From Prorocentrum cordatum (lineage: Eukaryota), in the NCBI GenBank assembly GCA_963575745.1, contig CAUYUJ010000202.1, positions 1-64,000 on the forward strand: a stretch of DNA of 64,000 bases. Reading direction: 5' to 3'. The notes beneath the pieces are model-generated. The model did not search any database, had not been told where the DNA came from, and worked only from the letters and a program-made list of their open reading frames with translations. Shown piece after piece: positions 32,969-60,238 of this stretch (position 1 is its first letter; each line of letters opens with the position of its first letter). Position numbers and translations under genes: made by a program.

Positions 32969-33017
32969 GCTGCACACCGAGCTGCTGAAGGAGGTTCAGG
33001 ACGGCGGCTTCGGCAAG
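32969..33017 (+). CDS. CDPK exon ([16 protein letters not shown])
   Basis: AG|G acceptor, AAG|GC donor, GC3-rich codons; joins in frame to AQLILD. The 5' boundary is uncertain. Confidence 0.7.
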
Positions 33018-33866
33018 GCGCATCCCGTCGTCGCCTGTCCCCAGGGATCGAGCATTTAGGCTTAGGGGTCGAGGTTTTGGATGTTTCTGGGCCCTTTTGG
33101 GCCTGGGGGACACCTTCCGTCGTCACGGCTGCATCCGCCTCGAAATTTTGGTGGGAATGTGCTCCAGGAGATGTTGGGAAGTCGCCATCCTCGTCATCGT
33201 CGTCGTCGTTCTCCTCCTCCTCTTCTGTCGGCCCTTTGATCCGAGTTCTTCGCCGTTTCGGGACCCAGGACCCTCAGGCATGGATCCGTCTCGAGAAGCC
33301 CACTATCAAGATGGGATCGGCCCGTGTCCTTCTCCTGAGGGATCGGTTCGTCTCCTCCTGCTCCTCCCTGAAGCTCTCATGGAGCGCGTTCTGCCCAGGT
33401 TTTTCAGGCGGTTCCAGCCATGGTGCCTGCCCAGGAGGTGGACGAAGGCAATCCGGGAGGACCACAAGAAGGCGAAACGCGTTGAAGGATCGGCAAACAA
33501 TTTCTCAAGTGCTTCCCCTCCTCCCTCCTCCTCCCCCTTCTCGACTTCGGGAAGGCGCAGCTCATCCTGGACAAGCTTGACAGGATCCAGGACCGGCGGC
33601 AGGATGAGGATTTCGTTGAGTAAGAGCGGGAAGCGAGAGAAGGAGGTGGAGGAGGAGGGAGAGGAGGAGGAGGAGGCGGAGGAAGAAGAGGAGGAGGAAT
33701 ATGGAGACTGTCTGAGCACCCTTGGTGGTGATATCGGTGTGTCGTAACAAGTTCAGATCGCACCATAAGTAAAAGGGTGGCATGGGGAATAGCGAGACGC
33801 CGTCGCACTTATTCATAATAGGTGTGGATGGAGTTTCCCAGAAGGATGGTAATGGTGACGATGATT

Positions 33867-33943
<77 letters not shown>

Positions 33944-36900
33944 GATGATGATGATGATGATGATGCTGATCCTGATGATGCTGATGATGGTGACGACGAT
34001 GCTGATGATGGTAATGATGCTGCTGCTGATGACGATGATGATGATGGTGGTGGTGGTGATGATGCTGCTGCTGATGATGATGATCATAATGACGATGATG
34101 GTGATGGTGATGGTGATACAGATGGTGATGATGATGGTGATGGAGACGGTGGTTGTGATGGGCTATTACGATGACGATGACGATGCTTATGATACGGATG
34201 ATGATTATGATGATGATGGTGATGATGGTGATGATGATGAAGACGAATAATTTAATGATGCTGAGGATGCTGATGAGGGTGATGATGCTGATGATGGTGC
34301 GTCGTTCTGGCGGCTATGTTGCCGCCTTCGCCGCCCCGTCGCCGCCCTGTCTCCGGGCATCGTCTTGACCTGTGCGTCGGTTTGGCGGCTATGTTGCCCG
34401 TGTCGGCGCCCCGTTTCCGCGTGTACAGTGAACTGCGTAGATTCTCCTTGCTGACACAGTATTCGGACTTACCCCCCCGGGGTCCTCGGCTACCTTTTCG
34501 TACTGCAACTTGCATTTGATTCTGCCCCATCGTCCATCCTGGACATGAATTCGTGCCATCCCAGGCAGGCCGGTATCGCCCCCCCCCCCCCCTTCATCTT
34601 ACGCGAACAATGTTATGCGCGCACATTCGTTTAACAAAAACCAGCAGTTTTCAAAAGCCCTTCAAAGCAACGGGACGAAGTGCACATGATGGCGTCGTTG
34701 CGTGCCGAAATCCTTCAAAAAGCTAAGGTTTCGTGAGGATTTCACCATCGAGAGTCACGAAATCATGCAAAGCACATTATTTCACAACAACTGTTTTCAA
34801 GAACAATCCTGCGCCCGCGCTCTTGAGAATTCTTAAGATCACCATCGGCTTCAACATTTCCATACCATGCTACCAAACGGGCCTTTCGCGCGCGCAGGTC
34901 GAAATCGTTCGAACGCCCTTGCGCGCGTGTTGTCGCAATAATCCTTTGCAAACAATGGAACGACGTGCGCACGCGCGCGTCGTCGCGTGCGCATGCCGAA
35001 CTCCTTGAAACACTTGGTTTCGTAAGGATTTTCAGAGCGACTGTCTCGAAAACGTAACAAAGCACATGGTTTGTAGCATTAGTTTTTAAACCAATCCTGC
35101 GCTTGCCGTCCTGCTGATTCTTTAGACAACCATCGGTTTTCCACCATTTCCATTACATTCTTGACGCTTCGCGAAGCGGCCAGCACACAAAGGAAGGTTC
35201 CCTCTTGGAGCGCTCTTGGGTGCCTCGGGGAGCCTCTTGGGGCCTCTTGAGGGTCTCTTGGGAGCCTCTTGAAGCGCTCTTGGGTGCCTCGGAAGCCTCT
35301 TGGGGCCTCTTGGGGGTCTCTTGGGAGCCTCTTAGGGCCTCTTGGGCGCCTCTTGGGGCCTCCTGGGCGCCTCTTGGGGCCCCCTTGAGGCGCTCTTGGG
35401 CGCCTTGGGAGCGCTCTTGGGGCCATCTTGGACGAGCTCCAGTAACGAAGGGGGGGGGTCCTTAATTCGCCTCCACCCTCGGAAGCTCCCAATATCGCTT
35501 CTTTGGAGCGCATTAGGGGCGCTCTTGGGCGCTCTTGGGGCCGTGGTGGGGCTCTCTTGGGCCTTTCCTGGAGCCCTGTTAGGCTGTCTTGGAGCCATCT
35601 TGAGGCCTCGAATGGCCATCAAGAACGAAAAGAAGAGAACGCGATTATTATTGATTTTCCGTAGGCTTTGGATGGATTTGGGCATCCTCGGGGCCTCCTT
35701 GGGGAGCTCTTTGGCCACTTGGAGCAGTCTTGGAGCGGTCTTGGGGCCTCTTGCAGCATCCTGGGTGCCATCTTGAGGCATAGCGGATATCTTGAGCCGT
35801 CTTGGAGCTCACCTTGGGCTCTCCGAGGTGCTCTTGGAGCCATCTTGGGCCATCTTGGTCGCTCCAACCTCTCAGGGGACCCCCCGTCCAGGTCCAGGGG
35901 TGGGGTGGGGGGGGGGGGTGGGGGGATGGGCAAACCCATCCCTGAAGGGGAAGAGGGGCAGATGGAAGACAACACACGCTAGACCGCCTACGCCCTAAAG
36001 GGCTTGTGGGATTCTGCCACACGGGCCTCTCGCGCCGCATGTCGAACTGCTTCGGACGCCCTTGCGCGCGTGCTGGGGTTGGGGGTGGGGGCGCGATCCG
36101 TATCAACCAATACCACCCTGGCCACTCGCGCGCGTCGGCCGCGCGCGCATGTCGAACTTCTTCAATAGCCTCCATCGCCGACGCGAGGAGATCGTCATCG
36201 TTATCGGCGGACGCGATCAACGTCGGCGCCGTCATTTGCCCGCCCGTCGTCATCGCCACCATCGTCACCATAATCGTGTCTACCGTTGTCGGCGTCGCCA
36301 TGATACCGCGCCCGCCCAAGTCACCGACTCGCGCTGAAGTGCCAGCTAGGAAGTGCCCAGCGGTCAGCGCCACCGCGGCCGCGTCGGTCGCGCCAAACTA
36401 GGTGGCCGCCGTGCGCGCGAGCATGCGCGGGCTAGCGCGGCCGCAGAGATGCACCAGCCAACGCCAAGCACTCATCTCACTCGCCGCCGCATGCTTTTGC
36501 AAACTAAGTTGCGGGTGGGTGGGTGGGATGTTTGCAAGGGCATGGGGTTTGTCAGCCCAGTGTAAGAATCAATTGCGCCGCGTGGATTCTCCATTCTCAT
36601 CGAGTAATAGCTTCGGCCCCCCGCAAACTAACGACGCCCATTTACGTATAGCAGTTTGCATATAATGGTGCCCCACCGCCCGTCCTGAGGATGAATTTGT
36701 ACCATCCCAGCCCTGCCGATATCGACACCTCTCGATGCAACAAATGATATGCGCGCTCTCTTGTTTATCAAAAAACCAGAAGGCCCATGGATTTTTGCAT
36801 CACATGGGACGAAGTGCGCGCGCGCGTCATTGCGCGCGCGCATGCCGGAATCCTGGCAAAACGGTTTCTTCCAGAAGAGGTCCAAATCAAGTGTCACGAA

Positions 36901-36988
36901 ACAAAAGGAGACCAACATGGTTTTGCAACACGAATTTTCAAGACAGGTCTGCGTCCGTTCTTGCGAATTCTTAAGTTTTTTGTTTAAC

Positions 36989-37019
<31 letters not shown>

Positions 37020-37090
37020 TGTATGTATGTATGTATGTATGTATGTATGTATGTATGTATGTATAGGTATGTGTATATATATATATATAT

Positions 37091-37125
<35 letters not shown>

Positions 37126-39741
37126 AACCGCATTTTCGCAACGTGCTTGCTCTCGCGCGTGCGCGTCGACATCGTTCGAACGCTCTTGCGCGCGTGCTGT
37201 CGCGAGGAACCCTTGCACACAATGGGGCGAAGTGCACGCGCGCGCGTTTTCGCGCGCGCGTCGAAATCCTTGAACACACACTCGGTTTCGTGAGGGTTTC
37301 AACGCCGAGTGCGCCGAGCACATATCAAACCACACGGTTTCCCAACGCCAGTTTTCAAAACATCTTTCGCTCGCGCCCGTGCGGATTCTTGAGGAAACGA
37401 TTGGTTTACCAACATTTTCATAAGCTTCTGCCAATCGGGCCTCTCGCGCAGCATGTCGAACTGATTCGAACATCCTTGCGCGCGTGCTGGGGGGTCCATG
37501 TCAAATAATGCAACGCGGGCCACTCGCACGCGTCGGCCGCGCGCGCATGTCGAAGCCTCACAAGAACCTGCATCGTCAACGCGAGGACATCGTCATCGTT
37601 ATCGGCGGGCGTGATCAACATCGGCGCCGTCGTTGGCCTTGCCGTCGTCATCGCCGCCTTCGTCGCCATAATCGTGTCTACCGTTGTCGGCGTCGCCATG
37701 ATACCGCGCCCGCCCAAGTCACCGACTCGCGCTGACATGCCAGCTAGGAGGTGCCCAGCGGTCAGAGCCACCGCGGCCGCGTCGGTCGCGCCAACTGATT
37801 CGAACGCCCTTGCGCGCGTGCTGGGGTTGGGGGTGGGGGCGCGATCCGTATCAACTAATACCGCGCTGGCCACTCGCGCGCGTCGTCCGCGCGCGCATTT
37901 CGAACTTCTTCAATAACCTCCATCGCCGACGCGAGGAGATCGTCATCGTTACCGGCGGACGCGATCAACGTCGGCGCCATCATTTGCCCGCCCGTCGTCA
38001 CCGCCACCATCGTCAACATAATCGTGTGTGGAATTATTGGCGTCGTCTAGTGCCGCGCCTGCCCAAGTCATCGGCTCGCATTGAAATGCCGTTGGGAAGT
38101 GTCCAGCGGTCAGCGTCACCGCGGCCGCGTCGGTCGCGCCAAACATGCGTTGGCTAGCGCGGCCGCGGAGGCGCGCCAGCCAACGCCAAGCGCTCATCTC
38201 AGTTGCCGCCGCGTGGGTTTTGCAAACCAAGTCGCGGGTGGGTGGGCGGGGTGTTTGCAAAAGAATGGTCAACTCGTCTGTAAACATAGTTTGCGTCACA
38301 TCGATTGCGCCGCGTCGGTTCTCTTTTCTAACGGTGTATTGAATTCTGTCTTCCCCTCCCCCCGGATATGACCGTTCCCCTTTTTTCGTTTTTCAGTTTG
38401 CCTCTGACTCTGCCCCGTCGTCCACTGTAGGTATGGAGTTGCACCATCCCAACCGAATCGGCAATGTGTCCTCCCCGCTTCCCTCAGCCCATGCACCAGA
38501 TATTATGCGCGCGCTCGTGAATCATGCAAACGGAGTAACAGGGATCCTTGGCAACAAATGAAACGAAATGCACGCGCGCGCCTCGTCGCGCGCATGCCGA
38601 AGTCTTTCAGATCATTAGGTTTCGCAAGTATTTCAAAATCGGGTGCCCCGAAAACATATAACCAACACGCGGTTCCACCACGAGTTGTCAAAACGAGCTT
38701 GTTTTTGCGCTCCCGCAGATTTTCAACAAGAGCGCCATGGGCTTCAAACTTTTTAATAACGTGTTTTGCAAGGATGACTCCCGCACAATATTTGCAAATC
38801 AAGTTGCGGGTGGGTTGGTGGGATGCTTGCGCGAGCAGTGGAGTTCACAATTCGTTGCAAACAAACATGGATTCTCCTTTCTCGGCCCCCCTTCCGGGTA
38901 TGTAAATCATGTACGATTGTGACCACATGTCCATTTTAACGGTGAATTTACATTATCCCAGGGGAACCGGTATCGCCCCCCCTGCGTTCCCCTATGAAAA
39001 AAACGATACGCGGGGACATCTTTTGTTCTAGCATAAGAGTTTTTTTCCACGAATTCTTTGCAACAAATGGGACGAAGTGCGCACGCGCGCGCCGTCGCGC
39101 GCGCATGCCGAAATCCTCCAACAACTTTGGGTGTCGGAAGGATCTCGTAATCGAGTTTCCCACACACATACAAAAAACACAGGGTTTCGCAACACTGATT
39201 AGCTAAAAAAGCTAACGCGCGAGCTCTTGTGAAACCGTAAGAAAACCACAGGTTGTTCAAGATTTTCACACAATGCTACCAAACGGGCTTCGCGTGCGCA
39301 TTTCGAAATTGGTCGAAAGGCCCTTGCGCGTGTGCCGTCGCGAGAATCTTCTGCAGCAGATGGGACGAAATCCAGACGCGCGCGTCGTCGCGCGCGCATG
39401 CCGAAATCCTTAAAAACCCATCGGTTTCGGAAGGATTTCAAAATCGTGTGTCCAACAAACCTACAAAAACACAAGGTTTCGCAACACGGATTTCCAACAA
39501 AAGCGTGCGCGCGCGCTTTTGCGTCGTCGTCGTCGTCGTCGCCGTCCTCCCTCTTCCCGCGTCGTCGTCGTCGTCGTCGCCTACGTCGTCCTTTGTCTTT
39601 CCTCGTGTTCGTCGTCGTCGTCCTCTTTGGCGTCGTGGTCGTTTCCGTCGTCGTTGTCGCCGTGGTCGTCCTTCCTCCTCCTCACTCGTCGTCGTCGTCG
39701 TCCGTCGTCGGCGTCTCGTCGTCGTCCATCCTATTTTGTCG

Positions 39742-39782
<41 letters not shown>

Positions 39783-41840
39783 GTCGTCGTCTTCCCTCCT
39801 CCCTCGTCGTTGTCGTCGTCGGCGTCGCCGTCCTTCCTCCTTCGTCGTTCGCGTCGTCGCCGTCCTCCCTCCTCCCTCGTCGTTGTCGTCGTTGTCGTCG
39901 TTTTCGCGAGCCTCGCTACTATCGTCATCGTGTCTACCGTTGTCGGCGTTGCCATGATACCGCGCCCGCCCAAGTCGCCGACTCGCACTGAAATGCCCGG
40001 TGGGATGCGCTAAGCGGTCAGCGCCACCGCGTTCGCGTCGGTCGCGCCAAACGAGCTGGCCGCTGCGCGCGCGAGCATGCGCGGGCTCGCGCGGCCGCAA
40101 AGATGTACCAGCCAACACCCAGCATTCATCGCAATCGTTCCCGCATGGGTTTGTCAAACCAAGTTGCGGGTGGGTGGGTGGGATGATTGCGCGAGCAGTG
40201 GAATTGACAACTTCAAGTTCGGCAAGTGAATTGCACAACGTAGATTGCATCACGCAAACTGAACCACGTCCATTGACCAAACATATTGTGCACCGCACGA
40301 GTGACTGGCACCACGTAAATTGCACCCCGTACACACAGACACACACGCACACATGTATGTACATGTACATACATACACAACACTTTCCAGATTGAGGGGG
40401 AGGAGGCCGAGGACGAGGAGGATGAGGAGGAGGAGGAGGAGGAGGAAGAGGAAGAGGAACATGAGGAGGAAGAGGAGGAGGAGGATGAGGAGGAGGAGGA
40501 GGAGGAGGAGGAGGAGGCGGTGGCCGCTCGCGGGCCTCGACCTTGGACGCGCGCTGCGGCCCTGAGCGCCCGCTGCCTCTTCTGCTCCGGCTGCCGCTTC
40601 GGCTCCGCATCCTTGCTCGAGCTCCTCTTTCTCATCGTTCCCCCTCACGCGTCCCGCCCCGTCCTCCCCCTCCTCCTTCCCCTCCTCCTCCTCCTCCTCT
40701 CTTCCTCCTCCTGCTCCTCCTCCTCCTCCCCCGTTCCCTCTCCCTCCTGTGGCTGCGTGTCCTGCAGTGGTTCCTTCGCCCCTCCCTGCAAGGACGTGTA
40801 CAACATGGAGAAGAAGAAACTCGGCGAGGGATCCTACGGGTCCGTGTGCAAGGCCACGCACAAGGCGCCCGGGAGGGAGCCCCTATCACTGCAGGAGACG
40901 GGGCGGGCAGGCAGCGGCAGGAAGCCAGTTGAGGAGAGGATACGTCGGGGGAGGGGGTTAGGAAGAGGCCAGCGGCGGAGGAGGAGGCGAAGGAGGAGGC
41001 GGAGGAGGAGTACGCAGGCGGACGAAGAGGAGGAGGGAAAGGAGGAGGGGGTGCTTAACGAGAGAAGGAGGGAAAACAATATTTGGCCAGCAGGAGAGGA
41101 GCCAACTTCTCGCGCTCCTCCCCTGTCCCCTCATCTCCTCTTCATTCTTCAAGCTGTCGCAACTTTCGTGGGCTCCTGGGAGGTCCAGAGGAGTGGGGTT
41201 GTACGGGGATCCAGTTCAGACCTCGCGGCTCCCTGGGGGGGGATGCGAAGTGAGAATCTGTCGCCACTTTCGTTGGCTCGTTGGAGGTCCAGCGGAGTGG
41301 AGTTGTACGTGGATCCAGTCGAGACCTCGCAGCTCCGCGCGGGGTCTGCGACGTGTTAAGTTGTCGCCACTTTCGTGGGCTCCTGGGAGGTCCAGCGGAG
41401 TGGAGTTGTACATGGATCCAGTTGAGACCTCGCGGCTCCCCGCGGGGTCTGCGACGTGTGAAGTTATCGCCTCTGTCGTGGGCTCCTGGGAGGTCCAGCG
41501 GAGTGGAGTTGTACGGGGATCCAGTTGAGACCTCGCGGCTCCATGGGGGGATGCGAAGTGTAAATGTGTCGCCACTTTCGTTGGGTCCTGGTAGGTTCAA
41601 CTGAGCGAAGTTCGGTGATCCACTTGAAACCTCCCGGCTCCTTTGGTGGCTGCAACGTGTGAATTTGTCACCTTTTTCGTTGGCTCCTGGGAGGTCCAGC
41701 GGAGTGGAGTCGTAAGGGGATTCAGTTGAGACCTCGAGGCTCCTTGGGGCTGCTGCGAAGTGCGAGCTTGTCGCCACTTTCATGGGCTCCTGGGAGGTCC
41801 AGCTCATGTGCACTGCGGGTCCTTCTTTGTGTGCGCGCGC

Positions 41841-41873
<33 letters not shown>

Positions 41874-44800: not shown

Positions 44801-46955
44801 GACGGGCGGCGACGAGGCGGCGACGGGGCGGCGACGGCGATAGCGTAGTCGTCAGACCGACAACAAGGCCCAGTTCTTTAGAACTCCAAAGCACCGCAGA
44901 GCAAGACGCAGCAGCGCAAAGCAGTGCCAAAAAATACAAGGCAAGGAAAGCCAGTGCGAAGCAATCTGTGCGGTGCAATCTATGCGGCGACGAGGCGCCG
45001 GCGGGGCGGCGACGGCGACAACACAGCCGCCAGACCGACGCACAGGCCCAATTCCTTCTATTCCAGAAGGCCGAACCCCCGATCGCCCCCTGGGGCCCAG
45101 GAGGAGGAGGAGGAGGAGGAGGAGGAGGAGGAGGAGGAGGAGGAGGAGGAGGAGGAGGAGGAGGAGGAGGGGGAGGAGGGGGAGGGGGAAGGAGGGCTTC
45201 CTCCCTGCTTGCGCGATTTTCTCGGGGCCCATCCAGAGCAGGCACCCCTTGCCGCCCCCGACCGTGCCCCTTCCGCTCCGCTCTTCCCCCCTCCCCTCCC
45301 CTCCCCCGCCACGAGTCCACTGGCGTCCAGCGCGCAATCAAGACCATCGCGAAGACGAAGATGAAGAACATCGAGCGCTTCAAGAAGGATGGGGGCATGG
45401 GCAGGGGGACAAAAAGTAACATAAGCATAAAAACTCGGAGGTCCGCGCGGATTTCTCGGATCGGCGCTGGACCCCCTCCCTGGCGCGCGGAGCGCGCCAG
45501 GGGCGGCGCCGGAGGCGCCGCCGGGGGCCCCCAGCGCCGATCCGAGAAGTCCGCGCGGACCTCCGAGTTTTTATGTCTATGCCACTTTTTGTTCCCCTAA
45601 TGGGGAAGGGGGGGCAGGGGGCCTATGACGAGGGGCGGGAGGACGAGGAGGCGGCGATGGGCCGAGCAGGGAACACCAGCACGGGCATCGACTCGGAGGT
45701 CTGCGCAGGTATCCTGGGTCTGTGCCAGGGCCTCCCTTGCAGGAGGGGTGGCCCTGGCGGCCCTGGCGCCGATCCAAGGGATTCATGCGGGCCTTCGACA
45801 GTTGATGTTCATGCAGATCTTCTTCCTCTAGTGGAGGAAGCCTCCTCCTCCTCCTCATTCTCCTCCCCCTCCTCCTCCTCCTCCGCCTCCCAGGTCCGTT
45901 TTCGCCTGACAGACTCGCAGGCGCGCCCTGGGGAGGGAGGGCTGGGTCAGTGATCGGGCTCGGTGTTTGGCTTCAGAACCAGTGGCGGGAGGGGCACTGG
46001 CCACTGCCTTGCCCCCCCCCTTCCCCCTGGTTGCATCGAGGCCAGATTGAAGTCGGGGGCCCCCAAACGAGGAGGTGACCACACCGTGCGGTGAGTCGGT
46101 GGGGATTCGGGGTCACCGCACGGTTTTGGGACTTGAGGCCCTCTCCGAGGACGTCTCGGGCGACAAGGGCCTCCGGGGTCCCAAGACCGTGCGGTGACGG
46201 ACCGTGCGGTGAGGTCCCTTGGGGTTCCGAGGTCACCGCAAGGTCTGTCACCGCACCATTTCGGGACTCCAAATGAAGAAGGATGAGGGAAGTGGGTGCG
46301 TGGGAGGAGAGCAAGGGGATAATGAATGCGTCGAGGCGGCAGGAGAGTAATAGGGAATGTCGGGGGCAAGGATGAAATTGATAGTTCATGACTAACCAGA
46401 CCCCGCGGATAATGAAGCATCCCCCCTTAACCCTTGTATCTGTTTATCCATGAGATTGACTGTGGTTCACTTGCCACAGCCGGCGTGGAGGCCGAACTTT
46501 CTCATCCCCTCCAAAGTTCTTATCGTAGTTCAGATCTTCATCTCATGCATGGCACAATTAGTAACCCCTATTATCATATTTGTGAGGGTGTCTCAGGCGA
46601 AGCGCACAGTTTCACATCGATATTTTCGGGAGAACAGTTTTGTCTCCTCCCTGGACCCCGAACTTCACATTATCCCCAGAGGATTATTCTCACTGGCATG
46701 CGGTTTGACTGTCGTTGCTGCTTGCGGTGAGCACTAGGGCCGCGTGTGTGACCAGCATAATTTTGAGTTGTGCAATGGCGATGGCAAGGAATGTGACTAT
46801 TCTCCAACTAGGCTTGCCCTATAGGAGTCCTAGCTCAAACCTTACTAGTTGGTCCCCTGCCCCCCTAATTCCTATGCCCCTCTTGGTTCCTATGGCTATG
46901 CCTATGCCTATGCTGTTGCCTCCCCTAACTCCTATGCCTACGCCTATGCCTGTGC

Positions 46956-46987
<32 letters not shown>

Positions 46988-49900: not shown

Positions 49901-52900
49901 CCGGTCTCCCAGATCCCGACGCGTGCCGGGCCGCGTGCCGTCACTGGCCGTCTGTGCGCCCTTCTGCTGCAGTTCTCGCATCTTCTCTCCCCGTCTGGCC
50001 CTCCTATCCTCCTCCTCTCCCTCCTCCTATCCCTCCCGTCCCCCTCCCGTCCCCCTCCTATCCCTCGGAGGGATAGGAGGGACAGGAGAGACGAGGGAAG
50101 CGGGGGATAAGAAGGGATAGGAGGGACGAGGGAAGCAGGGGGATAGGAGGGACAGGAGGGATAGGAGGGACGAGGCAGAGGAGGGATTCCCTCCTCTTCT
50201 GTTCCCCTGCTTTCCTCGTCCCTCCTGTCCCCCATCCTTGCCCTTCGGCTCTGCGTCGCGTTGGCGCAGCGCGCGTGCCGCCCTGTCCTCGACGAGCAGG
50301 TGGTGTTGGGCCTTCGGAGAGCGGGCGCTGCAGCTGCGAGGAGATGTTGGGGGGCCTTCGCCCAGTTTCCCTTTTTGGGGCCCCCAGGGAGGCCCTCGTC
50401 GCCACCGCTGGATTCGCCCCGAAATTCTGGTCAGAACGCACTCTGGGAGAGGTCTGGGGAGTAGCGGCATCGGTGCTTTTTGGTTCCCCCAGATAGGGGG
50501 GGGGGGGGGCAGCGATGGCTGCCGGCAAGGGTGATTTCTCATAAGGTGCTGAAGGAGTCGTATAAATAACGACCTCCAATCTCTAGTCGGCATGGTTTAT
50601 GGTTAAGACTAGGACGGTATCTGATCGTCTTCGATCCCCTAACTTTCGTTCTTGGCCCCGAAGGGGCCTTCTGGGGCCCCAGATGGGGGCCTTGACGGCC
50701 CGAGAAGGGCACCTTTCTCCCCCCCCCCCCCCTCAGGCGATCGTTCTCCCCGCCGCCGGGCCCCGCTGGCCCAGGGCGGCGGCGGCGCGGCGCCCGTGCC
50801 GAGGCGAGGCGAGCGGCCTCTCCGAGGCGAGAGGCGTCGGGGCGAAGGGCAGATTGAGACGCCCAAGACTTGGCATCGCTCGGACGTGTGCATGCGTCCT
50901 CCGGCGAGGACCATCGAGGAGCATCCTTGATCGTTTGGCGAAGAAACCGCGCACGCAACCGAACAAAAAAACACAGGGAATGGACGTCCGAGCGATGGCC
51001 ACGCTCGGCGGCGCGACCCGTTCACCGTCGCCGAGCAGCGGCCACGAACTCGCTGCCCAGGCGATGCTCGGTCGCCGCAGGCCCCGCCCTCGCCCGACGC
51101 CCCTCGCCGGCACACGCGCGGCCGGCAGGGCGCCCGCCGGGCCGCCCCGCCTTGGAGGCCGTGGCGCTCGCCTCGGCGGCGGGGGCCCCGCGAGGCGCAA
51201 GGCCGCGGGCTCTCGAGGGCCCAGGGAGCACTTGGCATCGCTCGGACGTGTGCATTTTTTCTCGGCGAGAACCATCGAAGACCATCCTGGACCATCGAGC
51301 AAACAAAAACAAAAACACGCACGGAGCCGAAAAACGCACGGGAAATGGACGTCCGAGCGACTGCAAGAGCAGCGAGGGGCTCGAGGCTGCAGGCTCGCCT
51401 CCGAGGCTCGAGGCCCGAGCCTCGAGCCTCGAGGTCCGAGGGCCGCACTGGCCCGAGAGGCCTGGAGAGGGGCCTGCCCACGGTGAAGTCGGGCCTGCCC
51501 CTCTCCAGGGGGGATGTTCAGAAGTCATCAAGAAATATGGTCCGGGGACGATTTCTGGACCGCTTCTGCATACTTTGGGGTATCCTTTTTGGCTGTTCTT
51601 CACTTTTGGCCCCAAATCCCCCTGTGGGGGGACAGGCCCGACTTGAGCCCACGGGGAAGTCCCGGTCACCCGCAGGGTCGGGGGGCGTCTCGTGGACCGC
51701 CTCGCCGATCTGGGCTGCGCTGCGCGGTCTGGGCAGGTGCGGGGGGTTCTTCTCCCGGCCTGCGGCGGAGGCGGGGGCGCGCTTCGCGCGGGGCGGAGCG
51801 AGAAGTGGTAAATCTAGGGTTAAGTCGGGCCTGTCCCTCTACAGGGGGAGTATTCAAACATAGTCGGGGGACTATTTTTTGAGTATTTTTGAGCATGTTT
51901 GGTGTATTTTTTTTATGATGTTCACTTTTCGCCCGATATCCCCCTGTAGGGGGACAGGCCCGACCTAAGTCTAGGGCCAGGAGAAGGGATGATCAGTTCA
52001 GGGAAGTGATGAGTCTAGACGTGCTAAGCATCCTCTGCCTCTTGTCGGGGGGGGCTCGGATCGTTCTGGGAGCCACAGGTATTCATCCCCGTTGTCGATA
52101 CTGCTATCGACTAGTAGTCTGTAGAGCGTGCTATCAAGGTAAGACCGCCGCTGGCAGCCGGTAGCGATTGCTGGCAGACTTTGCTGAATTTGCATCGTGC
52201 GCGTTGATCTACGACCTGGGTTGGATCGCGACTGAATGAAGTTACGCAGCCGTCAGTGAGGAGCCGTCAATAGATGACGCCCAGCTTCAATCCGAAGTTC
52301 ATGCGACACATGTTCAGGTGCTGCTTAGCAGGCGTTGTATTGGTTTGAGCAGCGCTCTCGCGATAGACCAGGTAATGGAGCACCCCGCGCATCACCGCTT
52401 TCGCTTTCGGCTGAGAATATTGAGAATTTCTGAGGCGCCTCACGAGGAGGTGCTCTGGGACCTCACCCCCAGCAGTACATGGTCAGAGCTGCTGGTTTGC
52501 AGGCAAGACGGGCTACCGTGGCAATCTGGTTCGGAAAGTGGCACCGTCGGAGGCCGCGAGTCGACAGTGGGTCGCCTGCCTGCTGTGTGGCAGCGAAGCT
52601 GCACTCGCCGCGATCTGAGCCCATGGGCCCCTGGGGCCCGTGGGCCAGACTTGCTGGCTGCATGGGCAGGGGCAGCCCGTGAACGGGGCAGCGTGCGACT
52701 GGATCCCAGCGCTCGCAGCCTGCGCCCATGGCCGCCAGCAGCGCCCCCTTGCTGCCCTCGCAGGCCCGTGCTCCGTGCTCTCGTACCGAAATTCGGCCCC
52801 GCAGCGCCCCTCGGTCGCCTCGACTCACCGCCCACCAAACCACCCCAGCCCAACCCGAAGGCTCCGATTTGCCCTCCATTTCCAGTTGGGGGGGGGTCGG

Positions 52901-54527
52901 GGAACATGGAGAAAACACATATGAAGCCCGTACCCCCCCCAACCCGAAATTCGGGTCTTCGGGTTGGGTTGGGGGGTTTGGTAGGTAGTCATCGACTGCG
53001 GCTTGGTGCCAAGCCGCCGCGACAAACATGTTTGACGGTCTTGTGGCGGACCCGGTTTGATCATGTTTCAGGGTTCTGCTGCGCACGGTCACCAAGGAAG
53101 GCCACCCCTCGCGGGATGCGCCTGCAGGACCGTCGTCGTGGAAGCGTGCCGGGCGATCTCGGGCCAGTGCTCGCGAGCAGGAGCCCGACCCTCCCCGTGT
53201 GGACTGCGTCGGGCTCGTGGCGTCTCGGCGCGGCGGCAGCGCGGGGGTCGCAGGGGCCCCCCTTGTGGAGGACCCGCGGCAGCCTTCGGGGACGTCTGGC
53301 AACGGAGGCCAGGCCGTCGCAGGCGTGCCGTACCGGGGCGGCAACGGGGGAAAAGCGGGGCCCCAAGAGAGGACAGGTGGAGGCGTGCGGGAAGGGGGCC
53401 AGAAGGGGGCCCACTGGAGGTGCACGAATGGCGCACCTTCCCCTCCTCCCCGTTGATTGCCCCCCTCCCCCCCCGCTCCCCCCCCCTTCCCGTGTCGGCG
53501 GCGAGCCCATGGAGGGAAGTGAGAAGGGGTGGGCCTTCTCAGAAGGCTCGGAAGTCCCCTGGCCTTCCCAGAAGTTGAGCCTTCCCGTGTGATGCGGAGC
53601 ATCTGTCCGAACGCCGGGGGCCTTCTGAGAAGCCCCTCCGCTTCCTGAGAAGGCCTTCTGCTTCTCACTTCCCCCCTCGCTCACCGCCGACCGCAGACTT
53701 CCCGCTTCTCGATTTTGCCGAGGCACGGGTCCCCGACCTCGCAACGACTCCCCCGGGACCGGTTTCTCGCCCCGAGCCGTGTCCTGGCGGCCCCGACGCC
53801 CAGCAACGGGCCGCCGAGCGAGGCGCCGCACCCCCGACGCGACTTTGCCAGCACCTTCGATCTCTGGGCTCAGCAGCGCCCAGAGATCGGACGGTGCACG
53901 CGGTGGCCTCGGCGAGGCCCCTAGAGAGGCTCCCAGACGTCCCCACATATCATGTGCAGAAGGAACGGAGGAGGAGGAGGAGGTTGAGAGGAGGAGGAGG
54001 AGGAGGAGGAGGTGGAGGAGGAGGAGGAGGAGGACGAGGAGGAGGAGACCTGGCGGCCTCTCCCGCCCGGGCAGCCGGCCAGGCGCCCCGGGAGCGGGCA
54101 CCGCGCCCCTGTCGGCGCCAGCCCCTGCCCTTCCCAGCGCCGCCGCCCGAGCAAGGACCACCACAACATCTACCTCGCCATGGAGCTCGGGGGCGACCTG
54201 GGTGGGATCATGATGATGGTGATGGTGATGGTGATGGCGATGGTGATGGTGATGATGATGATGGTGATGGTGATGGTGATGGTGATGGTGATGCTGATGA
54301 TGATGGTGATGGTGATGGTGATGGTGATGATGATGGTGATGGATGATGATGCTGAGGATGATGCTGATGATGATGCTAACGATGTTGATGATGCTGACGA
54401 TGCTGATGCTGATGCTGATGCTGAAAACATGATGCTGCTGATGATGCTGATTTATGTCAGGATGTTGATGATAATGATGATGAGGATGCTTGCTACGATG
54501 CTGATGATGATGATGGTGATGATGATA

Positions 54528-54582
<55 letters not shown>

Positions 54583-54895
54583 GGCCGATTATCATGATAC
54601 TGGTGATACTGATGCTGATGCTGATGATGATGATGGTGGTGGTGGTGATGATGATGGTGGTGGTGATGATGATGTTTAGGATGATATTGCTGATGCTGAT
54701 GACGATGGTGATACGGATGATGATGACGACGGTGATGATTACCATGATGCTGGTCATAATGATGGTGATTTCAATCCTGATGGTGATAGAGATAATGTTT
54801 ATGATGCTCATGATAATGATGATCATTATTATTCTGCTGCTGATGATGCTGCTGTTGGCGATGGTGATGATAACGACGACGATGATTCTGATGAC

Positions 54896-54927
<32 letters not shown>

Positions 54928-55210
54928 CGATGATGAGGATGATGATGATGATGGTGATGATGATGATCATACTGATGCTGGTGCTGATGATGATGGTGGT
55001 GATGATGATGACGACGACGGTGATGGCAATGATGACGATAATGCTCATGACGACGGTGATGCTGGTGATGATGATGATGGTGATGATGATGCTGGTGATG
55101 CCGATGATGATGCTGCTGATGATGATGATGCTGATGATGCTGGTGATGCCGATGACGACGACGACGATGGCTATGATGATGCTGATGTTGATGATGGCGA
55201 TGATGATGGA

Positions 55211-55259
<49 letters not shown>

Positions 55260-56318
55260 CTGATAATGATGATACTTCTGATGACGATGATCACGATGAT
55301 GATTATTCTGGTGATGCTGATGCTGATGCTTGTGATGATGATGCTGATGGTAATGATGACGACCATGCCGACGATGCTGATGATGCTCATGATGATGCTG
55401 GTGATGAGGTTGGTGGTGGTGACGATGATGATGATGATGCTGGTGATCGTCATTACGATGATGTTGATGCTGGCGATGATGACGATGGCGATGGCAATGG
55501 TGATGGTGATGATGATGATGCTGATGAGGGTGGCGGTGCTAATGATGATCACTATGATGCCGACGACGATAATGATAATGAGGATGATGATGAGGAATAC
55601 TGGTGATGATGATGATGCTGATGGTGATGATGATGATGCTGATGGTGATGATAATGGTGCTGATGATTATGATGATGATGATGATGCTGATGATGATGGT
55701 GATGATGATGATGATGATGATGGTGGTGATGATGATCATGCTGGTGCTGATGATGAAGATGATGGCGATCCTGATGATGCTCATGATGATGGCGATGCTT
55801 ATTATGCCGATGATGACAACGATGATGCTGGTAATGCTGACGATGATGATTACAAGGGTGATGGTCATGATGGTGATGATGGCTGTGATGGTGATGATTA
55901 TGGTGATTGTGCTTCTGCTGATGATGATGGCGATGACGACGATAGCGATGATGCTGCTGCTGCTGATGCTGATGCTGCAGATGACGACGATGACGCTGAT
56001 GATACTGATGGTGATGACGATGTTGATGATGTTGATGCTGATGTGACTGATGATGCTGATGGTGATGATGATGATAATGATGATGGTAATGCTGATGACG
56101 TCGATGATGATGATGCGGATGCTGCTTGCGATGATGATGAACCTTCTGCTGATGATGATGGTGGTGATGACGATGACGACGATGGTGATGATGCTGACGA
56201 TGATGCTGATAATTATGGCGATGACGATGATGGCGATTGTGATTAAGATGATGATGATGATGACGATGCTGCTGATGATGATGGTGATGATCATGATGCT
56301 AGCGGTGGTGGCGATGTC

Positions 56319-56351
<33 letters not shown>

Positions 56352-56998
56352 AAGGTTGATGATGATGATGGTGCTGATGATGCTGATGATCATGCTGATG
56401 ATGCACATGATGATGACGACGATGATGATGCTGATGCTGATGATGATGATGTTGGCGATGATGATTATGATGGCGATGCGGATGATGTTGTCGAGGATGA
56501 TGACGACGATGATGATGCTGATTATGATGATGATGATGCTGATGACGATGATGATGATGATGCTGATGGCGATGTTGATTATGAGTGTGATGATGATGCT
56601 GATGATGCTGATGCTGGTGCTGATAATTTTGGATACTGATGCTGCTGCTGATGATGCTGATCATGATGAGGGATGGTTGTGATTGATGATGATGCCTGTG
56701 ATGATTGTGATACTGATGATGATGAGAATGATGACGATGCCGATGATGGTGATGAGGATGCTTCTGCTGGCGATGCTGATGAGGGTGATGATGGTGATGC
56801 TGATGATAGTGATGACGATGATAATGATGATGATGATGACGATGACGCTGATGATACTGATGGTGATGACGATGTTGATGATGTCGATGATGATGTGACT
56901 GATGATGCTGATGGTGATGATGATGATGATGGTACTGCTGATGACGGCGATGATAATGATGATGCGGATGCTGCTGGCGATGATGATGAACCTGCTGC

Positions 56999-57036
<38 letters not shown>

Positions 57037-57547
57037 GTGGTGATGACGATGACGACGATGATGATGATGATGCTGACGAGGATGCTGATAATTATGACGA
57101 TGACGATGATGGCGATGGTGATTCAGATGATGATGATGATGACGATGCTGCTGATGATGATGTTGATGATCATGATGCTAGCGATGGTGGCGATGGCGAT
57201 GATGATGATGATAATGATGATGATGCTGATGCTGATGATGGTGATGATGATGACGAAACTGATGGTGATGCTGACGATTGCGAGACTGATGGTGATGATG
57301 CTGATGCTGATGATGATGATGCAGCTGCTGCTGATGATGCTGGTGCTGATGGTGCTGATGATGATCCTGATGATGCGCATGATGATGCTGATGATGGCGA
57401 TGATGATTATGATGGCGATGCTGCTGATGATGATGATGATGATGATGATGCTGATGACGACGATGATGATGCTGATGATGATGACGATGGTGATGATGAC
57501 GATGATGATAATGATGATGCTGATGATGCTGATGATGATGATGATGC

Positions 57548-57587
<40 letters not shown>

Positions 57588-58014
57588 GATTATGAATGTG
57601 ATGATGCTGATGATGCTGATGCTGGTGCTGATAATTTAGGATACTGATGATGCTGCTCATGATGCTGATGATGATGCGGATGGTTGTGATTGTGATGATG
57701 ACGCTTGTGATGATGGTGATGATGATGAGAATGATGACGATGACGATGATGGTGATGAGGATGCTACGGCTGGCGATGCTGACGAGCATGATGATGGTGA
57801 TGTTGATGATAGTGATGACGATGCTGATGATGATGATGATGATGCTTCTGATGATGGCGATGCTGATCGTGGTGTTGATGATGATGTTGATGATGCTGGT
57901 GATGATCATGACGATGGCGATGATGATGCTGATGGTAATGATGGCGATGCTGCTGATAAGGATGATGCTTACGACGATGACGATGACGATGATCACGATG
58001 ATGTTTGGGACGAC

Positions 58015-58057
<43 letters not shown>

Positions 58058-58067
58058 ATGATGATGC

Positions 58068-58153
<86 letters not shown>

Positions 58154-60238
58154 GTGGTTGTGGTGGTGGTGGTGGTGGTGGTGATGATTGTGTTGCTGCT
58201 GGTGGTGATGACGGTGAAGGTGCTGATGGTAATGCCGATGATGCTGCTGCTGCTGATGATGCTGCTGCTGATGATGATGGTGATTCTGGTGGTGATGATG
58301 AGTATGGTGATGGTGATGGTGGTGCTGGTGATGATAATGCTTCTGATGATGATGGTGAGGAGGAGGAGGATGACGAGGAGGAGGAGGGGGAGGAGAAGGG
58401 TCATGAAGATGCCGAGGAGGATGAGGAAGAAGGAAGAGTATGAGCAAGAAGAAACAGAAGAGGAGCCATGATGAACAGCAGCAATAATACCAAGAGAACG
58501 AGCAGGAGCACCAGTGTAAGCACAAGGCGCATCAACGATGCTGCAATAAACCCTCGCACGTTTTTTTACCTTGATGAACCCCGTTGCCAGACAAGTGAGG
58601 GTCTGAGAATCCTCAGCAGTGCCAACATCGATTCTTTGGACTTCAATGTCGTGAATCAGCCTTCCTGTTGCGTCATGACAATCTTGAATCGTGCCAGAAC
58701 GCATCCCTGCCAGTTCATCACCGCGAGTCAACGTGACTGTTGCGCCCTGACAATCCGAAACCGTGCGGGAACATCATTCCCGGGACGTCAACCAGACGAA
58801 CCAATTAACTTGTAAACTTTGAAGGAGCATATACGCGGCGTTAACGCGAGAGCTACAGTATAAAAAAGAATGGTATCCATCCGTGAATCTCTTCTGCAGT
58901 TTTTAAGACGGATGTGCGCGGCGCTCCTCAGGCGAGAGCCACCTTTCGAACGTCATCCGCCCTCCATCCGTGATGCTCTTGCATGTTTTTGAGATGACTG
59001 TGCGCAGCGCTACGGCGAGAGTTCCATTATGATGACAGCCCGCCAACCATCCGTGAAACTTGTGCCAACGTTGAAGACGGTGCTAACGCGAGAGCCACAT
59101 TATGAAAAGGAGCCGCCCTACATCGGGGAAGCTCCTTGCAAACGTTTACAACGACAGTGCATGGCGCCAAAGCGAGGACCGCATATTGGAAAGGAACCGC
59201 CAACCATCCGTAAAGCTCCCGCAGTGTTTGAAGACGAAAGCGCGCGGCGCTGAGGCGAGAGCCACGTTTTGGAAACGGCCCGCCCTCCATCCGTGAAGCT
59301 CCTGTGAACTTCTAAGACGAATGGGTGCTGCGCTACGGCGCGAGCCACATGAAAAAAAATGCCCGCCCTCCATCCGTGAAACTCTTGCACACTTGGGAGG
59401 CGAATGTGCGCGGCGCTACGGCGGGAGCCGCAATTTGAAAACGGCCCGGTCACCATCTGTGAAATTCTTGCAAGCGTTTTAAGATGAATGTGTGCGGCGC
59501 TAACGCGAGGGCCAGATTTAGGAAAAGGCGACGCCCGCGATCCGTGAAGATTCAGGATCAGGAGGAGGAAGAGGATGCGGAGGAGAAGGAGGAGGAGGAT
59601 GAAGATCAGACAATCTAAGAGACGGGGGAGGGTACTGATGAGGAGATCGGCGAGGGGGCAGGAGGGAGACGAAGAGGAGGATCAACAGAGAAGCGTTAGA
59701 ATAGGACGGGGAGGAATCATAGGAGAACGAGGAAGAGGAGGAAGATGAGGAAGGGATGGATAGGCGGAGAGCGGCCACAACAACACACATGCCGCTGCTG
59801 CAGCGAACATGCCGTGTCGAACGGGGATGAGTACGGGAGGCTGAGGCTGCCCCCCTCCTCCCGCCTCGCCCTTTCCCTCCTCTCCTCCCGCCTCTTCCTC
59901 TCCTCCTCCCGCCCCCATCCTTCTCCTCCCGCCTCCTCGCCACCGCCCCCTTCCCATCCTCTTCCCCCTCCGACGACGGCGCCCCCCCCCTCCTCCGACG
60001 ACGATGCCCCGCCTCCCCGAAGCCTCTTCAAGTAATGAGGGGGGAAGGAGGAGGGGCGGGGACGGTTAGGGCATGGGGGAGGGGTGTATGTATGAGAAGG
60101 AGGAAGAGGGGGAAGAGTGACAGGGACGTGGCGGATGAACATGAGGAGAAAGGCGAGGAGCATCCCCCTTAGGAGCTGTGCGCGGGCGGGGAGCTTTTCG
60201 ACCGCATCATCGAGGCGAGCCACTTCAACGAGAAGGAG
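32969..60238 (+). CDS. CDPK: Calcium-dependent protein kinase (CDPK/CAMK-group) gene, N-terminal half of the kinase domain; 8 micro-exons, 3' incomplete
   Basis: The exons are collinear and splice in frame into kinase subdomains I-V: GEGSYG glycine loop, AIK catalytic Lys, alphaC Glu (EIAIMK), DHPNII, and hinge [14 protein letters not shown], as typical of alveolate CDPKs. EF-hands are not in the window, so CDPK versus another CAMK is an inference. Confidence 0.9.
33555..33590 (+). CDS. CDPK exon ([12 protein letters not shown]), 36 nt
   Basis: AAG|GCG acceptor, CAG|GA donor; fits the pre-kinase segment leading into DVY. Confidence 0.82.
33845..34298 (+). repeat. Degenerate (GAT)n microsatellite
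   Basis: Direct observation. Confidence 0.97.
34290..40350. repeat. Composite repeat block (family J) filling a CDPK intron; related sequence at ~41915-42160 and ~43920-45045
   Basis: Recurring GGGACGAAGTGC...CGCGCGCGCATGCCGAAATCC and GCCATGATACCGCGCCCGCCCAAGTC; near-identical blocks at ~36268 and ~37666. Confidence 0.8.
35195..36013. mobile_element. Family B copy
   Basis: CTCTTGGG arrays and end CGCCCTAAAGGGCTTGTGGGATT, matching 1261-1282. Confidence 0.7.
40793..40864 (+). CDS. CDPK exon ([24 protein letters not shown]), 72 nt
   Basis: Glycine-rich loop; AG|G acceptor, AAG|GC donor. Confidence 0.95.
41150..41805 (+). repeat. About 103-bp minisatellite, ~7 units
   Basis: GGCTCCTGGGAGGTCCAGCGGAGTGGAGTTGTAC recurs every ~103 bp. 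Confidence 0.88.
42425..42896. repeat. 472-bp near-perfect spacerless palindrome with a family H core
   Basis: The arms are reverse complements about GAG|CTC at 42660/42661. Confidence 0.95.
43708..43889. mobile_element. Tc1/mariner (Stowaway-like) MITE with TA TSD
   Basis: TA-CTCCAGATTTCGTCATAAAAGGGAGGGGG ... CCCCCTCCCTTTATTACGAAATCTGGAG-TA. Confidence 0.88.
45316..45387 (+). CDS. CDPK exon ([24 protein letters not shown]), 72 nt
   Basis: AIK motif; GAG|T acceptor, AAG|GA donor. Confidence 0.93.
45402..45599. mobile_element. MITE family C with 5-bp TSD ATGGG, 14 nt after a CDPK donor; degraded copy at ~45667-45830
   Basis: About 70-bp TIR; ATGGG at 45397-45401 and 45600-45604. Confidence 0.88.
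46071..46254. mobile_element. MITE-like element with ACCGTGCGGTGA motifs in both orientations
   Basis: Inverted termini; TSD not resolved. Confidence 0.6.
48152..48169 (+). CDS. CDPK micro-exon (EIAIMK), about 18 nt
   Basis: alphaC helix; CAG|G acceptor. The donor position is ambiguous (48168-48171). Confidence 0.85.
48370..48584. mobile_element. MITE with ~42-bp TIR
   Basis: TTTGGACGCCCGAAATGGGTACGGAAAGAATGGGTAC ... GTACCCATTCTTTCCGTACCCATTTTGGGCGTCCAAA; an extra partial TIR at ~48216. Confidence 0.85.
48665..48809. mobile_element. MITE family A, copy 4 (TSD GCATATTC/ACAGATTC)
   Basis: Same TIRs as copy 1. Confidence 0.85.
49090..49440. repeat. (TTC)n grading into (CTC)n
   Basis: Direct observation. 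Confidence 0.95.
49521..49565 (+). CDS. CDPK exon ([15 protein letters not shown]), about 45 nt
   Basis: DHPNII motif; GAG|GA donor. No AG at the expected acceptor. Confidence 0.92.
50869..51360. repeat. Two ~125-bp direct repeats (50869-50995 and 51231-51360)
   Basis: CTTGGCATCGCTCGGACGTGTGCAT ... TGGACGTCCGAGCGA; each copy has inverted ends. Confidence 0.75.
51484..51646. mobile_element. MITE family A, copy 5 (perfect TSD GCCCACGG)
   Basis: Same TIRs; TSD at 51476-51483 and 51647-51654. Confidence 0.92.
51820..51968. mobile_element. MITE family A, copy 6 (TSD ATCTAGGG/GTCTAGGG)
   Basis: Same TIRs as copy 1. Confidence 0.9.
52832..52985. mobile_element. MITE-like inverted-repeat element
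   Basis: CCAAACCACCCCAGCCCAACCCGAAG ... CTTCGGGTTGGGTTGGGGGGTTTGG. Confidence 0.65.
53512..53675. mobile_element. MITE-like inverted-repeat element
   Basis: GGGAAGTGAGAAG ... CTTCTCACTTCCC, with internal CCTTCT.AGAAG motifs. Confidence 0.6.
54156..54182 (+). CDS. CDPK micro-exon (DHHNIYLAM), 27 nt
   Basis: beta5 strand with Met gatekeeper; AAG|G acceptor, ATG|GA donor. Confidence 0.92.
54208..58355 (+). repeat. About 4.1-kb degenerate (GAT)n tract inside a CDPK intron
   Basis: Direct observation; contains an internal higher-order duplication. Confidence 0.97.
58510..59555. mobile_element. Family R, copy 4, with about 9 tandem ~83-bp units (58860-59550)
   Basis: ACCAGtgtaagcacaaggcgcatcaacgatgctgca end; CCATCCGTGAA-like motif recurs every ~74-87 bp; GAG-rich flanks on both sides. 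Confidence 0.75.
60173..60238 (+). CDS. CDPK exon ([22 protein letters not shown]), 66 nt
   Basis: GGELFDRI motif; TAG|G acceptor, GAG|GC donor (alternative GA donor after 60235). Confidence 0.93.

What the first reader, a model, noticed from the sequence alone, without database searches (positions are those of the whole stretch)
32969..60238. Kinase gene whose splice donors look like target-site duplications of the next exon (Introner-type architecture)
None of the eight exons has a GT donor. In 5 of 7 introns the first intron bases repeat the first bases of the downstream exon. The pairs (donor vs acceptor) are CTTCGGCAAG|GCGCA vs CTTCGGGAAG|GCGCA (14/15), AG|GAC vs AG|GAC, AG|GA vs AG|GA, CGAG|GAC vs CAAG|GAC, and G|GAGCT vs G|GAGCT. 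A sixth intron shares CAC(A/G)AG| upstream of the junction. All four clear GA donors precede exons that begin with GA. All resolved junctions are phase 0. GC/GA donors and Introner elements are established in dinoflagellates. My inference is that these splice sites were created from duplicated exon sequence at insertion, and the introns then swelled with nested MITEs and microsatellites.
Basis: partly seen in the sequence, partly recalled or inferred. Interest (0 to 1): 0.75.

Follow-up and report, generated by a model that had tools for sequence, protein, structure and literature searches.

The report
Dinoflagellate kinase gene with repeated intron boundaries
This is the front part of an ordinary dinoflagellate calcium-dependent protein kinase gene whose introns begin with the same few bases as the next exon, a real pattern that has already been described for dinoflagellates and explained by duplicated insertion sites.

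Summary
These align without a gap to cDNA-like contigs of related CDPKs (84% and 79% nt; dN/dS about 0.1). No donor is GT. In 6 of 8 introns the donor dinucleotide equals the first two bases of the next exon. Exact permutation within the gene gives p=0.007 for this and p=0.003 for summed match length. Intron 2 lies between 15-nt direct repeats (14/15).

The pattern is not new. It is the "identically repeated intron boundary" of Mendez et al. 2015.

Introner membership is not shown for these introns. 0 of 8 have terminal inverted repeats, and no intron ends resemble each other within the window. No genome or RNA run was available. Microsatellites and hairpin MITE-like elements do fill the introns.

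Two points stay open: intron 6 has no AG acceptor in any frame-keeping model, and a distant homologue has an intron 5 nt from intron 2. Verdict: real, well read, already known in kind; low interest.

The parts
24976..25025 (+). Exon 1 (start codon, MGGC... N-terminus); donor GTGAG|gcgc, phase 2.
   Evidence: 17/17 aa identical to P0001; the joined junction reads VR|LHTE as in L001; sequence.
25026..32968 (+). Intron 1, 7943 nt, GC..AG; boundary repeat GAG|GC (5 nt). Holds (ATAC)n and (TATG)n arrays and a palindromic repeat at 32130-32345.
32969..33017 (+). Exon 2 (…[16 protein letters not shown])
33018..33554 (+). Intron 2, 537 nt, GC..AG. It lies between 15-nt direct repeats at 33008-33022 and 33545-33559 (14/15). 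Both splice sites lie inside the repeat. No hairpin and no inverted ends.
33555..33590 (+). Exon 3 ([12 protein letters not shown])
33591..40792 (+). Intron 3, 7202 nt, GA..AG; boundary repeat AG|GAC
40793..40864 (+). Exon 4 (glycine-rich loop, LGEGSYGSV)
40865..45315 (+). Intron 4, 4451 nt, GC..AG|T; no downstream repeat. Holds a 103-nt minisatellite (41151-41803) and a 170-nt perfect-stem palindrome (42576-42745).
45316..45387 (+). Exon 5 ([13 protein letters not shown]…, the catalytic-lysine strand)
45388..48151 (+). Intron 5, 2764 nt, GA..AG; boundary repeat AG|GA. A MITE-like hairpin element lies at 45403-45598, 16 nt after the donor.
48152..48169 (+). Exon 6, 18-nt microexon (EIAIMK, the alpha-C glutamate)
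48170..49520 (+). Intron 6, about 1351 nt; boundaries unresolved. There is no AG acceptor in any frame-keeping model (GA..CG; GC..CG with a 5-nt repeat GGCGG; or AG..AG with 15 extra residues).
49521..49565 (+). Exon 7 ([15 protein letters not shown])
49566..54155 (+). Intron 7, 4590 nt, GA..AG; boundary repeat AG|GAC
54156..54182 (+). Exon 8 (DHHNIYLAM)
54183..60172 (+). Intron 8, 5990 nt, GA..AG; boundary repeat G|GAGCT. 54206-58373 is one (GAT)n-type array, about 70% of the intron.
60173..60238 (+). Exon 9 ([22 protein letters not shown]); donor AG|gccc. The gene runs on past the window.

Best explanation
The region holds the first nine exons (18-72 nt each) of a calcium-dependent protein kinase gene of a large-genome core dinoflagellate. 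The exons are separated by introns of 0.5-7.9 kb with GC or GA donors.

The likeness between the start of each intron and the start of the next exon is the dinoflagellate 'identically repeated intron boundary'. Its most likely origin is this. Each intron began as a piece of DNA inserted at an AG|GH site, and the staggered cut was filled in, which duplicated a few target bases. The upstream copy (GC.. or GA..) became the donor. The downstream copy stayed as the first bases of the next exon. A spliceosome that tolerates GC and GA donors removes the insert and restores the reading frame. In intron 2 the duplication is 15 nt and both splice sites lie inside it.

The introns were later enlarged by microsatellite arrays, minisatellites and hairpin MITE-like insertions.

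Shown here: the gene model, the repeats and their excess over chance, and the repeat content. Inferred: the insertion origin and the transposon nature of the inserts.
For: Gene model: the nine joined exons align gap-free over 435 nt to cDNA-like contigs L001 and L002, with dN/dS 0.10-0.11. P0001 and its relatives carry kinase and EF-hand Pfam domains.

Repeats: 6/8 donor dinucleotides equal the next exon's first two bases (p=0.007). The summed prefix match is 20 nt (p=0.0027) by exact permutation. With the alternative I6 model the sum is 24 nt (p=0.0009). The pseudo-site null gives P(>=2)=0.25, P(>=3)=0.065, P(>=5)=0.005. I2 has 14/15 identity against 2-10/15 in the 56 non-cognate pairs. In homologue cDNAs the codon after exon 9 is GCG or GCA, matching the GC donor of I9 (inferred for this gene).

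Literature: the boundary repeat of 2-9 bp, present once in the mRNA, is described in PMC5032977 (abstract and sections 11 and 15 read). [quoted passage not shown]

A genomic-like CDPK contig (L045, 61-64% aa identity) is uninterrupted across the positions of I3-I8.

Expansion: tandem arrays and hairpin elements with folding z-scores of -16.9 and -18.8.
Against: No terminal inverted repeats in 0 of 8 introns. No similarity between intron ends in the window.

At most 2 of 8 introns come within one mismatch of the Symbiodinium signature, which is a perfect tetramer plus CT or CC at +5/+6. These are I2, and I6 only under its alternative model.

I4 shows no downstream repeat, and I6 lacks an AG acceptor. 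The sample is eight introns of one gene. The junctions rest on homologues of 79-84% nt identity, not on this gene's own RNA.

L045 has an acceptor 5 nt from the I2 junction. If that is the same old intron, a neutral 14/15 relic would be hard to explain.
Confidence: 0.6

Rival explanations
1. The inserts were not transposons. The introns, or at least intron 2, arose when a staggered double-strand break was repaired with filler DNA, or by another non-transposon insertion. This duplicates the target in the same way.
For: I2's duplication is 15 nt, longer than the 3-8-nt duplications listed for dinoflagellate ILE classes. The 522-nt insert has no inverted ends and no hairpin (z -0.5). It has no copy elsewhere in the window, no spliced-leader relic and no A-rich tail (read). 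Intron gain with short direct repeats by break repair in Daphnia is recalled, not read here.
Against: Published genome-wide work assigns thousands of dinoflagellate introns with the same boundary architecture to transposon families. Old elements lose their inverted repeats. A single window cannot show copy number.
Confidence: 0.2
2. Chance. The AG|GH consensus on both sides, together with GC-rich phase-0 codons (GAC, GAG, GCG), produces the matches.
For: Non-cognate pairs can match as well as cognate ones: the I3 donor matches exon 8 over 4 nt, and the I7 donor matches exon 4 over 4 nt. Apart from I2, the 15-nt junction identity of cognate pairs (3-9) equals that of non-cognate pairs. 0/9 GT donors and 4/9 GA donors are not unusual against published frequencies (P 0.02-0.08 and 0.06-0.14, using Table 2 of PMC10666404).
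Against: Permutation within the gene keeps consensus and codon bias and still gives p=0.003-0.007. I2's 14/15 has P about 1e-4 even in a null inflated by interspersed repeats.
Confidence: 0.1
3. The boundary identity is functional. The dinoflagellate splicing machinery uses likeness between the donor and the start of the downstream exon to pair the sites, so selection keeps the repeat.
For: Mendez et al. found the repeat at every intron they examined. Under one model I6 keeps a 5-nt repeat GGCGG although its acceptor is CG, not AG. L045 has an intron 5 nt from I2, at the 3' edge of I2's repeat.
Against: I4 is presumably spliced with no downstream match. The repeated bases differ at each intron, so no fixed RNA guide could read them, and direct repeats cannot pair with each other. 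Roy et al. report donors mutating away from the exon copy (GA towards GC) while splicing efficiency stays above 99%.
Confidence: 0.07
4. The gene model is wrong, or this copy is a pseudogene, so the junctions are not real splice sites.
For: I6 has no AG acceptor. No RNA of this organism could be laid on the window.
Against: The alignment to two cDNA-like contigs is gap-free across all eight junctions. There is no stop codon. dN/dS is about 0.1.
Confidence: 0.03

Closest known systems
Identically repeated intron boundary (IRIB) of dinoflagellates (Mendez et al. 2015, PMC5032977)
   Same: A run of 2-9 bp straddling the donor is repeated in register at the acceptor and appears once in the mRNA. 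It usually contains AGG, and the rest is unique to each intron. The repeats here are 5, 8, 5, 2, 4, 5 and 6 nt for I1-I5, I7 and I8.
   Different: I2's repeat extends to 15 nt with one mismatch, beyond the 2-11 bp reported. The junctions here rest on homologous cDNAs, not on the gene's own transcripts.
Dinoflagellate Introner-Like Elements with a GHNN (4-nt) or AGGH duplication (Roy et al., bioRxiv 10.1101/2020.10.14.339549; Symbiodinium type and Polarella classes 4, 5, 13, 14)
   Same: The donor equals the first bases of the downstream exon. The donors are GC or GA. Exons end in AG (8 of 9). Phase 0 dominates (7 of 8). In I2 both splice sites lie inside the duplication, as in the AGGH classes.
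   Different: There are no inverted repeats ending at the 3' splice site. There is no CT at +5/+6. No family of similar introns was detectable. The introns are 0.5-7.9 kb and mostly satellite DNA.
Introner elements as scored in Amoebophrya and Prorocentrum (Farhat et al. 2021, PMC7789003; Dougan et al. 2023, PMC10666404)
   Same: Direct repeats of 3-5 nt overlap the exon/intron boundaries.
   Different: The definition also needs inverted repeats of 8-20 nt within 30 nt of each end. None was found here (0/8).
Calcium-dependent protein kinases of alveolates
   Same: An N-terminal MGxC motif, the glycine-rich loop, the lysine strand, the alpha-C EIAIMK and the DHPNI motifs. 124/145 residues are identical to a dinoflagellate transcript.
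   Different: Only the first 145 codons lie in the window. The catalytic loop and the EF hands are beyond it.

Membership tests
Dinoflagellate IRIB | Identical run of 2 bp or more straddling both splice sites in register, present once in the mRNA | tested here: met
   7 of 8 introns have runs of 2-8 nt. I6 has 1 nt or 5 nt depending on the model. The single copy in mRNA is inferred from gap-free alignment to homologous cDNA-like contigs.
Dinoflagellate IRIB | The repeat contains GG, usually AGG | tested here: met
   AGG in I1, I2, I3, I5 and I7; GG in I8; AG only in I4.
Dinoflagellate IRIB | Junctions confirmed by the gene's own transcripts | not testable with these tools
   No RNA holder was listed; no genome is held.
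Introner / ILE | Short target-site duplication, one copy of which supplies a splice site | tested here: met
   Tetramer identity between donor and next exon is 2,4,3,1,2,(0 or 4),3,4 of 4. The excess over permuted pairs has p=0.003-0.007.
Introner / ILE | Terminal inverted repeats next to the duplication (8-20 nt within 30 nt of each end) | tested here: not met
   0 of 8 introns. The longest exact inverted match is 3-7 nt, none above shuffles. Alignment of the 120-nt ends gave only low-complexity sequence in I3.
Introner / ILE | Many similar copies that form introns in other genes | not testable with these tools
   Within the window no two intron ends are alike. No genome is held. Notes of this scan hold no look-alikes.
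Introner / ILE | Intron absent at the same position in relatives (recent gain) | tested here: inconclusive
   L045 (61-64% aa identity) is uninterrupted over the I3-I8 positions. It has an acceptor 5 nt from I2. The organism and the age of the split are unknown.
CDPK (protein kinase plus EF hands) | Kinase subdomains I-V in order, with close CDPK homologues | tested here: met
CDPK (protein kinase plus EF hands) | C-terminal EF-hand domain in the same gene | not testable with these tools
   The gene runs off the window after exon 9. No further kinase exon was seen in 60239-64000.

The most novel reading that the evidence does not exclude
The boundary identity is not a passive scar. It is used or maintained by dinoflagellate splicing to pair a weak GC or GA donor with its acceptor. 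This would explain why intron 6 may splice at a non-AG acceptor while keeping a 5-nt boundary repeat. It would also explain why intron 2 keeps a 14/15 repeat although a distant homologue has an intron 5 nt away. A milder version: intron 2 is a young gain made by an undescribed insertion process with a 15-bp target duplication.
Probability: 0.08. Interest if true: 0.7.

Novelty: already known. Interest (0 to 1): 0.2.

Why it matters
The window gives a clean, hand-checkable example of two published dinoflagellate features: repeated intron boundaries, and donors that look like the upstream copy of a target duplication. It shows that the pattern can be seen in raw sequence of a large, satellite-rich genome. 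It adds no new principle.

Its practical value is for gene modelling. The boundary repeat pinpoints junctions of very short exons, including an 18-nt microexon, across introns of several kilobases. Two details could feed a genome-wide test of relic versus function: the non-AG acceptor of intron 6 and the 15-nt duplication of intron 2.

Tried and rejected
RNA evidence: no RNA holder was listed for window:40700-50600, so no reads could be laid.

Whole genome: none is held for this window, so no genome-wide junction statistics or copy counts could be made.

Earlier notes of this scan: nothing by place, by words or by sequence.

It was repeated with a longer window reference.

A null built from all AGG sites of the window was rejected because microsatellite arrays inflate it (P(15/15)=0.02). 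It was replaced by complexity-filtered sites.

Terminal inverted repeats: none. I2 as a hairpin element: no. Spliced-leader relic in the window, using a motif recalled from memory: 0 matches at up to 3 mismatches.

MITE arm in viral contigs: 0 matches.

Other genes in 1-24900 that could enlarge the junction sample: 130 ORFs scanned against Pfam, none above a curated cut-off.

A canonical-looking GTAAGA lies about 30 nt into I3 (read). It was rejected as the donor: using it would add 29 nt, while the homologues read RIQ|DVY without an insertion.

An in-frame ATG at 32934 before exon 2 was rejected as the start, because the homologues' N-terminus is encoded at 24976.
Full report
What is there. 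The window is GC-rich (about 0.43-0.66 per 2 kb) and full of simple repeats. A protein search seeded with the glycine-loop exon returned dinoflagellate calcium-dependent protein kinases carrying kinase and EF-hand domains. tblastn of the closest one (P0001) placed its first 146 residues on the + strand in eight pieces between 24976 and 60241. A motif scan found the missing EIAIMK piece as an 18-nt microexon at 48152-48169.

The model has nine exons: 24976-25025, 32969-33017, 33555-33590, 40793-40864, 45316-45387, 48152-48169, 49521-49565, 54156-54182 and 60173-60238. Joined, they give 435 nt. These align with no gap to cDNA-like metatranscriptome contigs L001 (84% nt, 124/145 aa) and L002 (79% nt, 113/145 aa). 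dN/dS against both is 0.10-0.11. The coding sequence has therefore been under purifying selection, and the exon junctions are placed correctly to within the sliding that the boundary repeats allow. No further kinase exon lies in 60239-64000.

The observation. The donors of I1 to I9 are, in order: GC, GC, GA, GC, GA, ambiguous, GA, GA, GC; none is GT. Eight of nine exons end in AG. The first bases of each intron repeat the first bases of the next exon over 2, 5, 3, 0, 2, 0, 3 and 5 nt for I1-I8. I2 additionally shares 9 of 10 bases upstream of the junction, giving direct repeats of 14/15 at 33008 and 33545.

Excess over chance. I shuffled exactly which exon start is paired with which donor, all 40320 orders. 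This keeps the AG|G consensus and this gene's codon and donor composition. The observed sum of 20 matched bases is reached in 0.27% of orders. Six dinucleotide matches are reached in 0.7%, and four matches of 3 nt or more in 0.7%. With the alternative I6 model the sum is 24 (0.09%). Against complexity-filtered AG|G[AC] and AG|G pseudo-sites of the window, a match of 2, 3 or 5 nt or more has probability 0.25, 0.065 and 0.005. A 14/15 junction identity has probability about 1e-4. Results against the reading: some non-cognate pairs match over 4 nt. Apart from I2, the 15-nt identity of true pairs (3-9) is no better than that of false pairs (2-10). The CAC(A/G)AG claim for I4 is not above background. 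Zero GT donors in nine and four GA donors in nine are within what published donor frequencies allow.

What it is. The pattern is described in print. Mendez et al. [quoted passage not shown] Roy et al. (preprint, parts 1-2 and passages read) explain it by Introner-Like Elements. [quoted passage not shown] Other classes carry 3-, 5- or 8-nt duplications, or an AGGH duplication that supplies both sites. They report a conserved GH after the 3' splice site, more GA donors among recent gains, and few intron positions shared with other eukaryotes.

Tests of Introner membership. The operational definition used for Amoebophrya and Prorocentrum needs inverted repeats of 8-20 nt and direct repeats of 3-5 nt within 30 nt of the intron ends. 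The direct repeats are present. Inverted repeats are not: the longest exact inverted match within 30 or 50 nt of the ends is 3-7 nt in all eight introns, never above shuffles. Local alignment of the 120-nt ends gives only a GAG/CTC low-complexity match in I3. No two intron ends are similar in a self-comparison of the window. I2 is not a hairpin. At most two introns come within one mismatch of the Symbiodinium signature: I2, and I6 under its alternative model. Copy number in the genome could not be tested. The architecture is therefore compatible with old, decayed ILE insertions, but membership is not shown. The 15-nt duplication of I2 points to an insertion with a longer staggered cut than the classes in print.

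Relatives. One genomic-like contig with a CDPK of 61-64% identity (L045) is uninterrupted across the positions of I3-I8. It has one intron further on with its own 4-nt boundary repeat (G|GTGC ... G|GTGT). Its coding match begins at an acceptor that places a phase-2 junction 5 nt downstream of the I2 junction, exactly at the 3' edge of I2's repeat. The upstream exon is off the contig. This may be an independent insertion nearby or the same intron annotated in another register. In the second case a neutral 14/15 relic would be surprising.

Swelling of the introns. Tandem Repeats Finder lists arrays in every large intron. Examples are (ATAC)n and (TATG)n in I1, a 103-nt minisatellite in I4, and a 4.2-kb (GAT)n-type array that makes up about 70% of I8. 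Two families of near-perfect palindromes lie in introns and upstream of exon 1. One is at 45403-45598 and 24690-24887 (86% alike, folding z -16.9). The other is at 42576-42745, 32130-32345 and 23982-24227 (folding z -18.8). None of them forms an intron boundary. The one in I5 starts 16 nt after the donor.

Open point. I6 has no AG in the 45 nt before the MDHPN exon. Three frame-keeping models exist. GA..CG gives a protein of the same length as the homologues. GC..CG has a 5-nt boundary repeat GGCGG and adds two arginines. AG..AG adds 15 residues. Mendez et al. state that the repeat has 'often', not always, AGG at the 3' site. Only RNA can decide, and none could be obtained.

Verdict. The interpretation matches a published model but is only half met by the tests possible here. 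The phenomenon is already known, so interest is low.

Noticed in passing
window 48170-49520: Intron 6 has no AG acceptor in any model that keeps the reading frame. One model keeps a 5-nt boundary repeat GGCGG with a CG acceptor and would add two arginines before VMDHPN.
   Followed up: partly
L045 300-330 and 900-1180: A genomic-like CDPK contig (61-64% aa identity) lacks the I3-I8 positions. It has an acceptor 5 nt downstream of the I2 junction, at the edge of I2's repeat. Its later GT-AG intron has its own boundary repeat G|GTG.
   Followed up: partly
window 45403-45598 and 24690-24887: Two copies (86% alike) of a roughly 195-nt near-perfect palindrome (DNA folding z -16.9). One lies 16 nt inside intron 5, the other 88 nt upstream of the start codon. 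No match in viral contigs.
   Followed up: partly
window 42576-42745, 32130-32345, 23982-24227: A second palindromic repeat family of about 170 nt (DNA folding z -18.8), matching in both orientations. It lies in introns 4 and 1 and upstream of exon 1.
   Followed up: partly
window 54206-58373; also 1840-3050, 9900-11950, 33850-34300: Long degenerate (GAT)n-type trinucleotide arrays, about 70% alike to each other. The largest (4.2 kb) fills most of intron 8.
   Followed up: no
window 41151-41803 and 63239-63991: A 103-nt minisatellite (6.4 copies) in intron 4 recurs in inverted orientation in the DNA after exon 9.
   Followed up: no
window 1-24900: No recognisable protein domain in 130 higher-complexity ORFs upstream of the gene. 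The stretch looks like a long repeat-rich intergenic region.
   Followed up: partly
window 32934-32968: An in-frame ATG without stop runs into exon 2. It would allow an alternative first exon, but the homologues' N-terminus is encoded at 24976.
   Followed up: no
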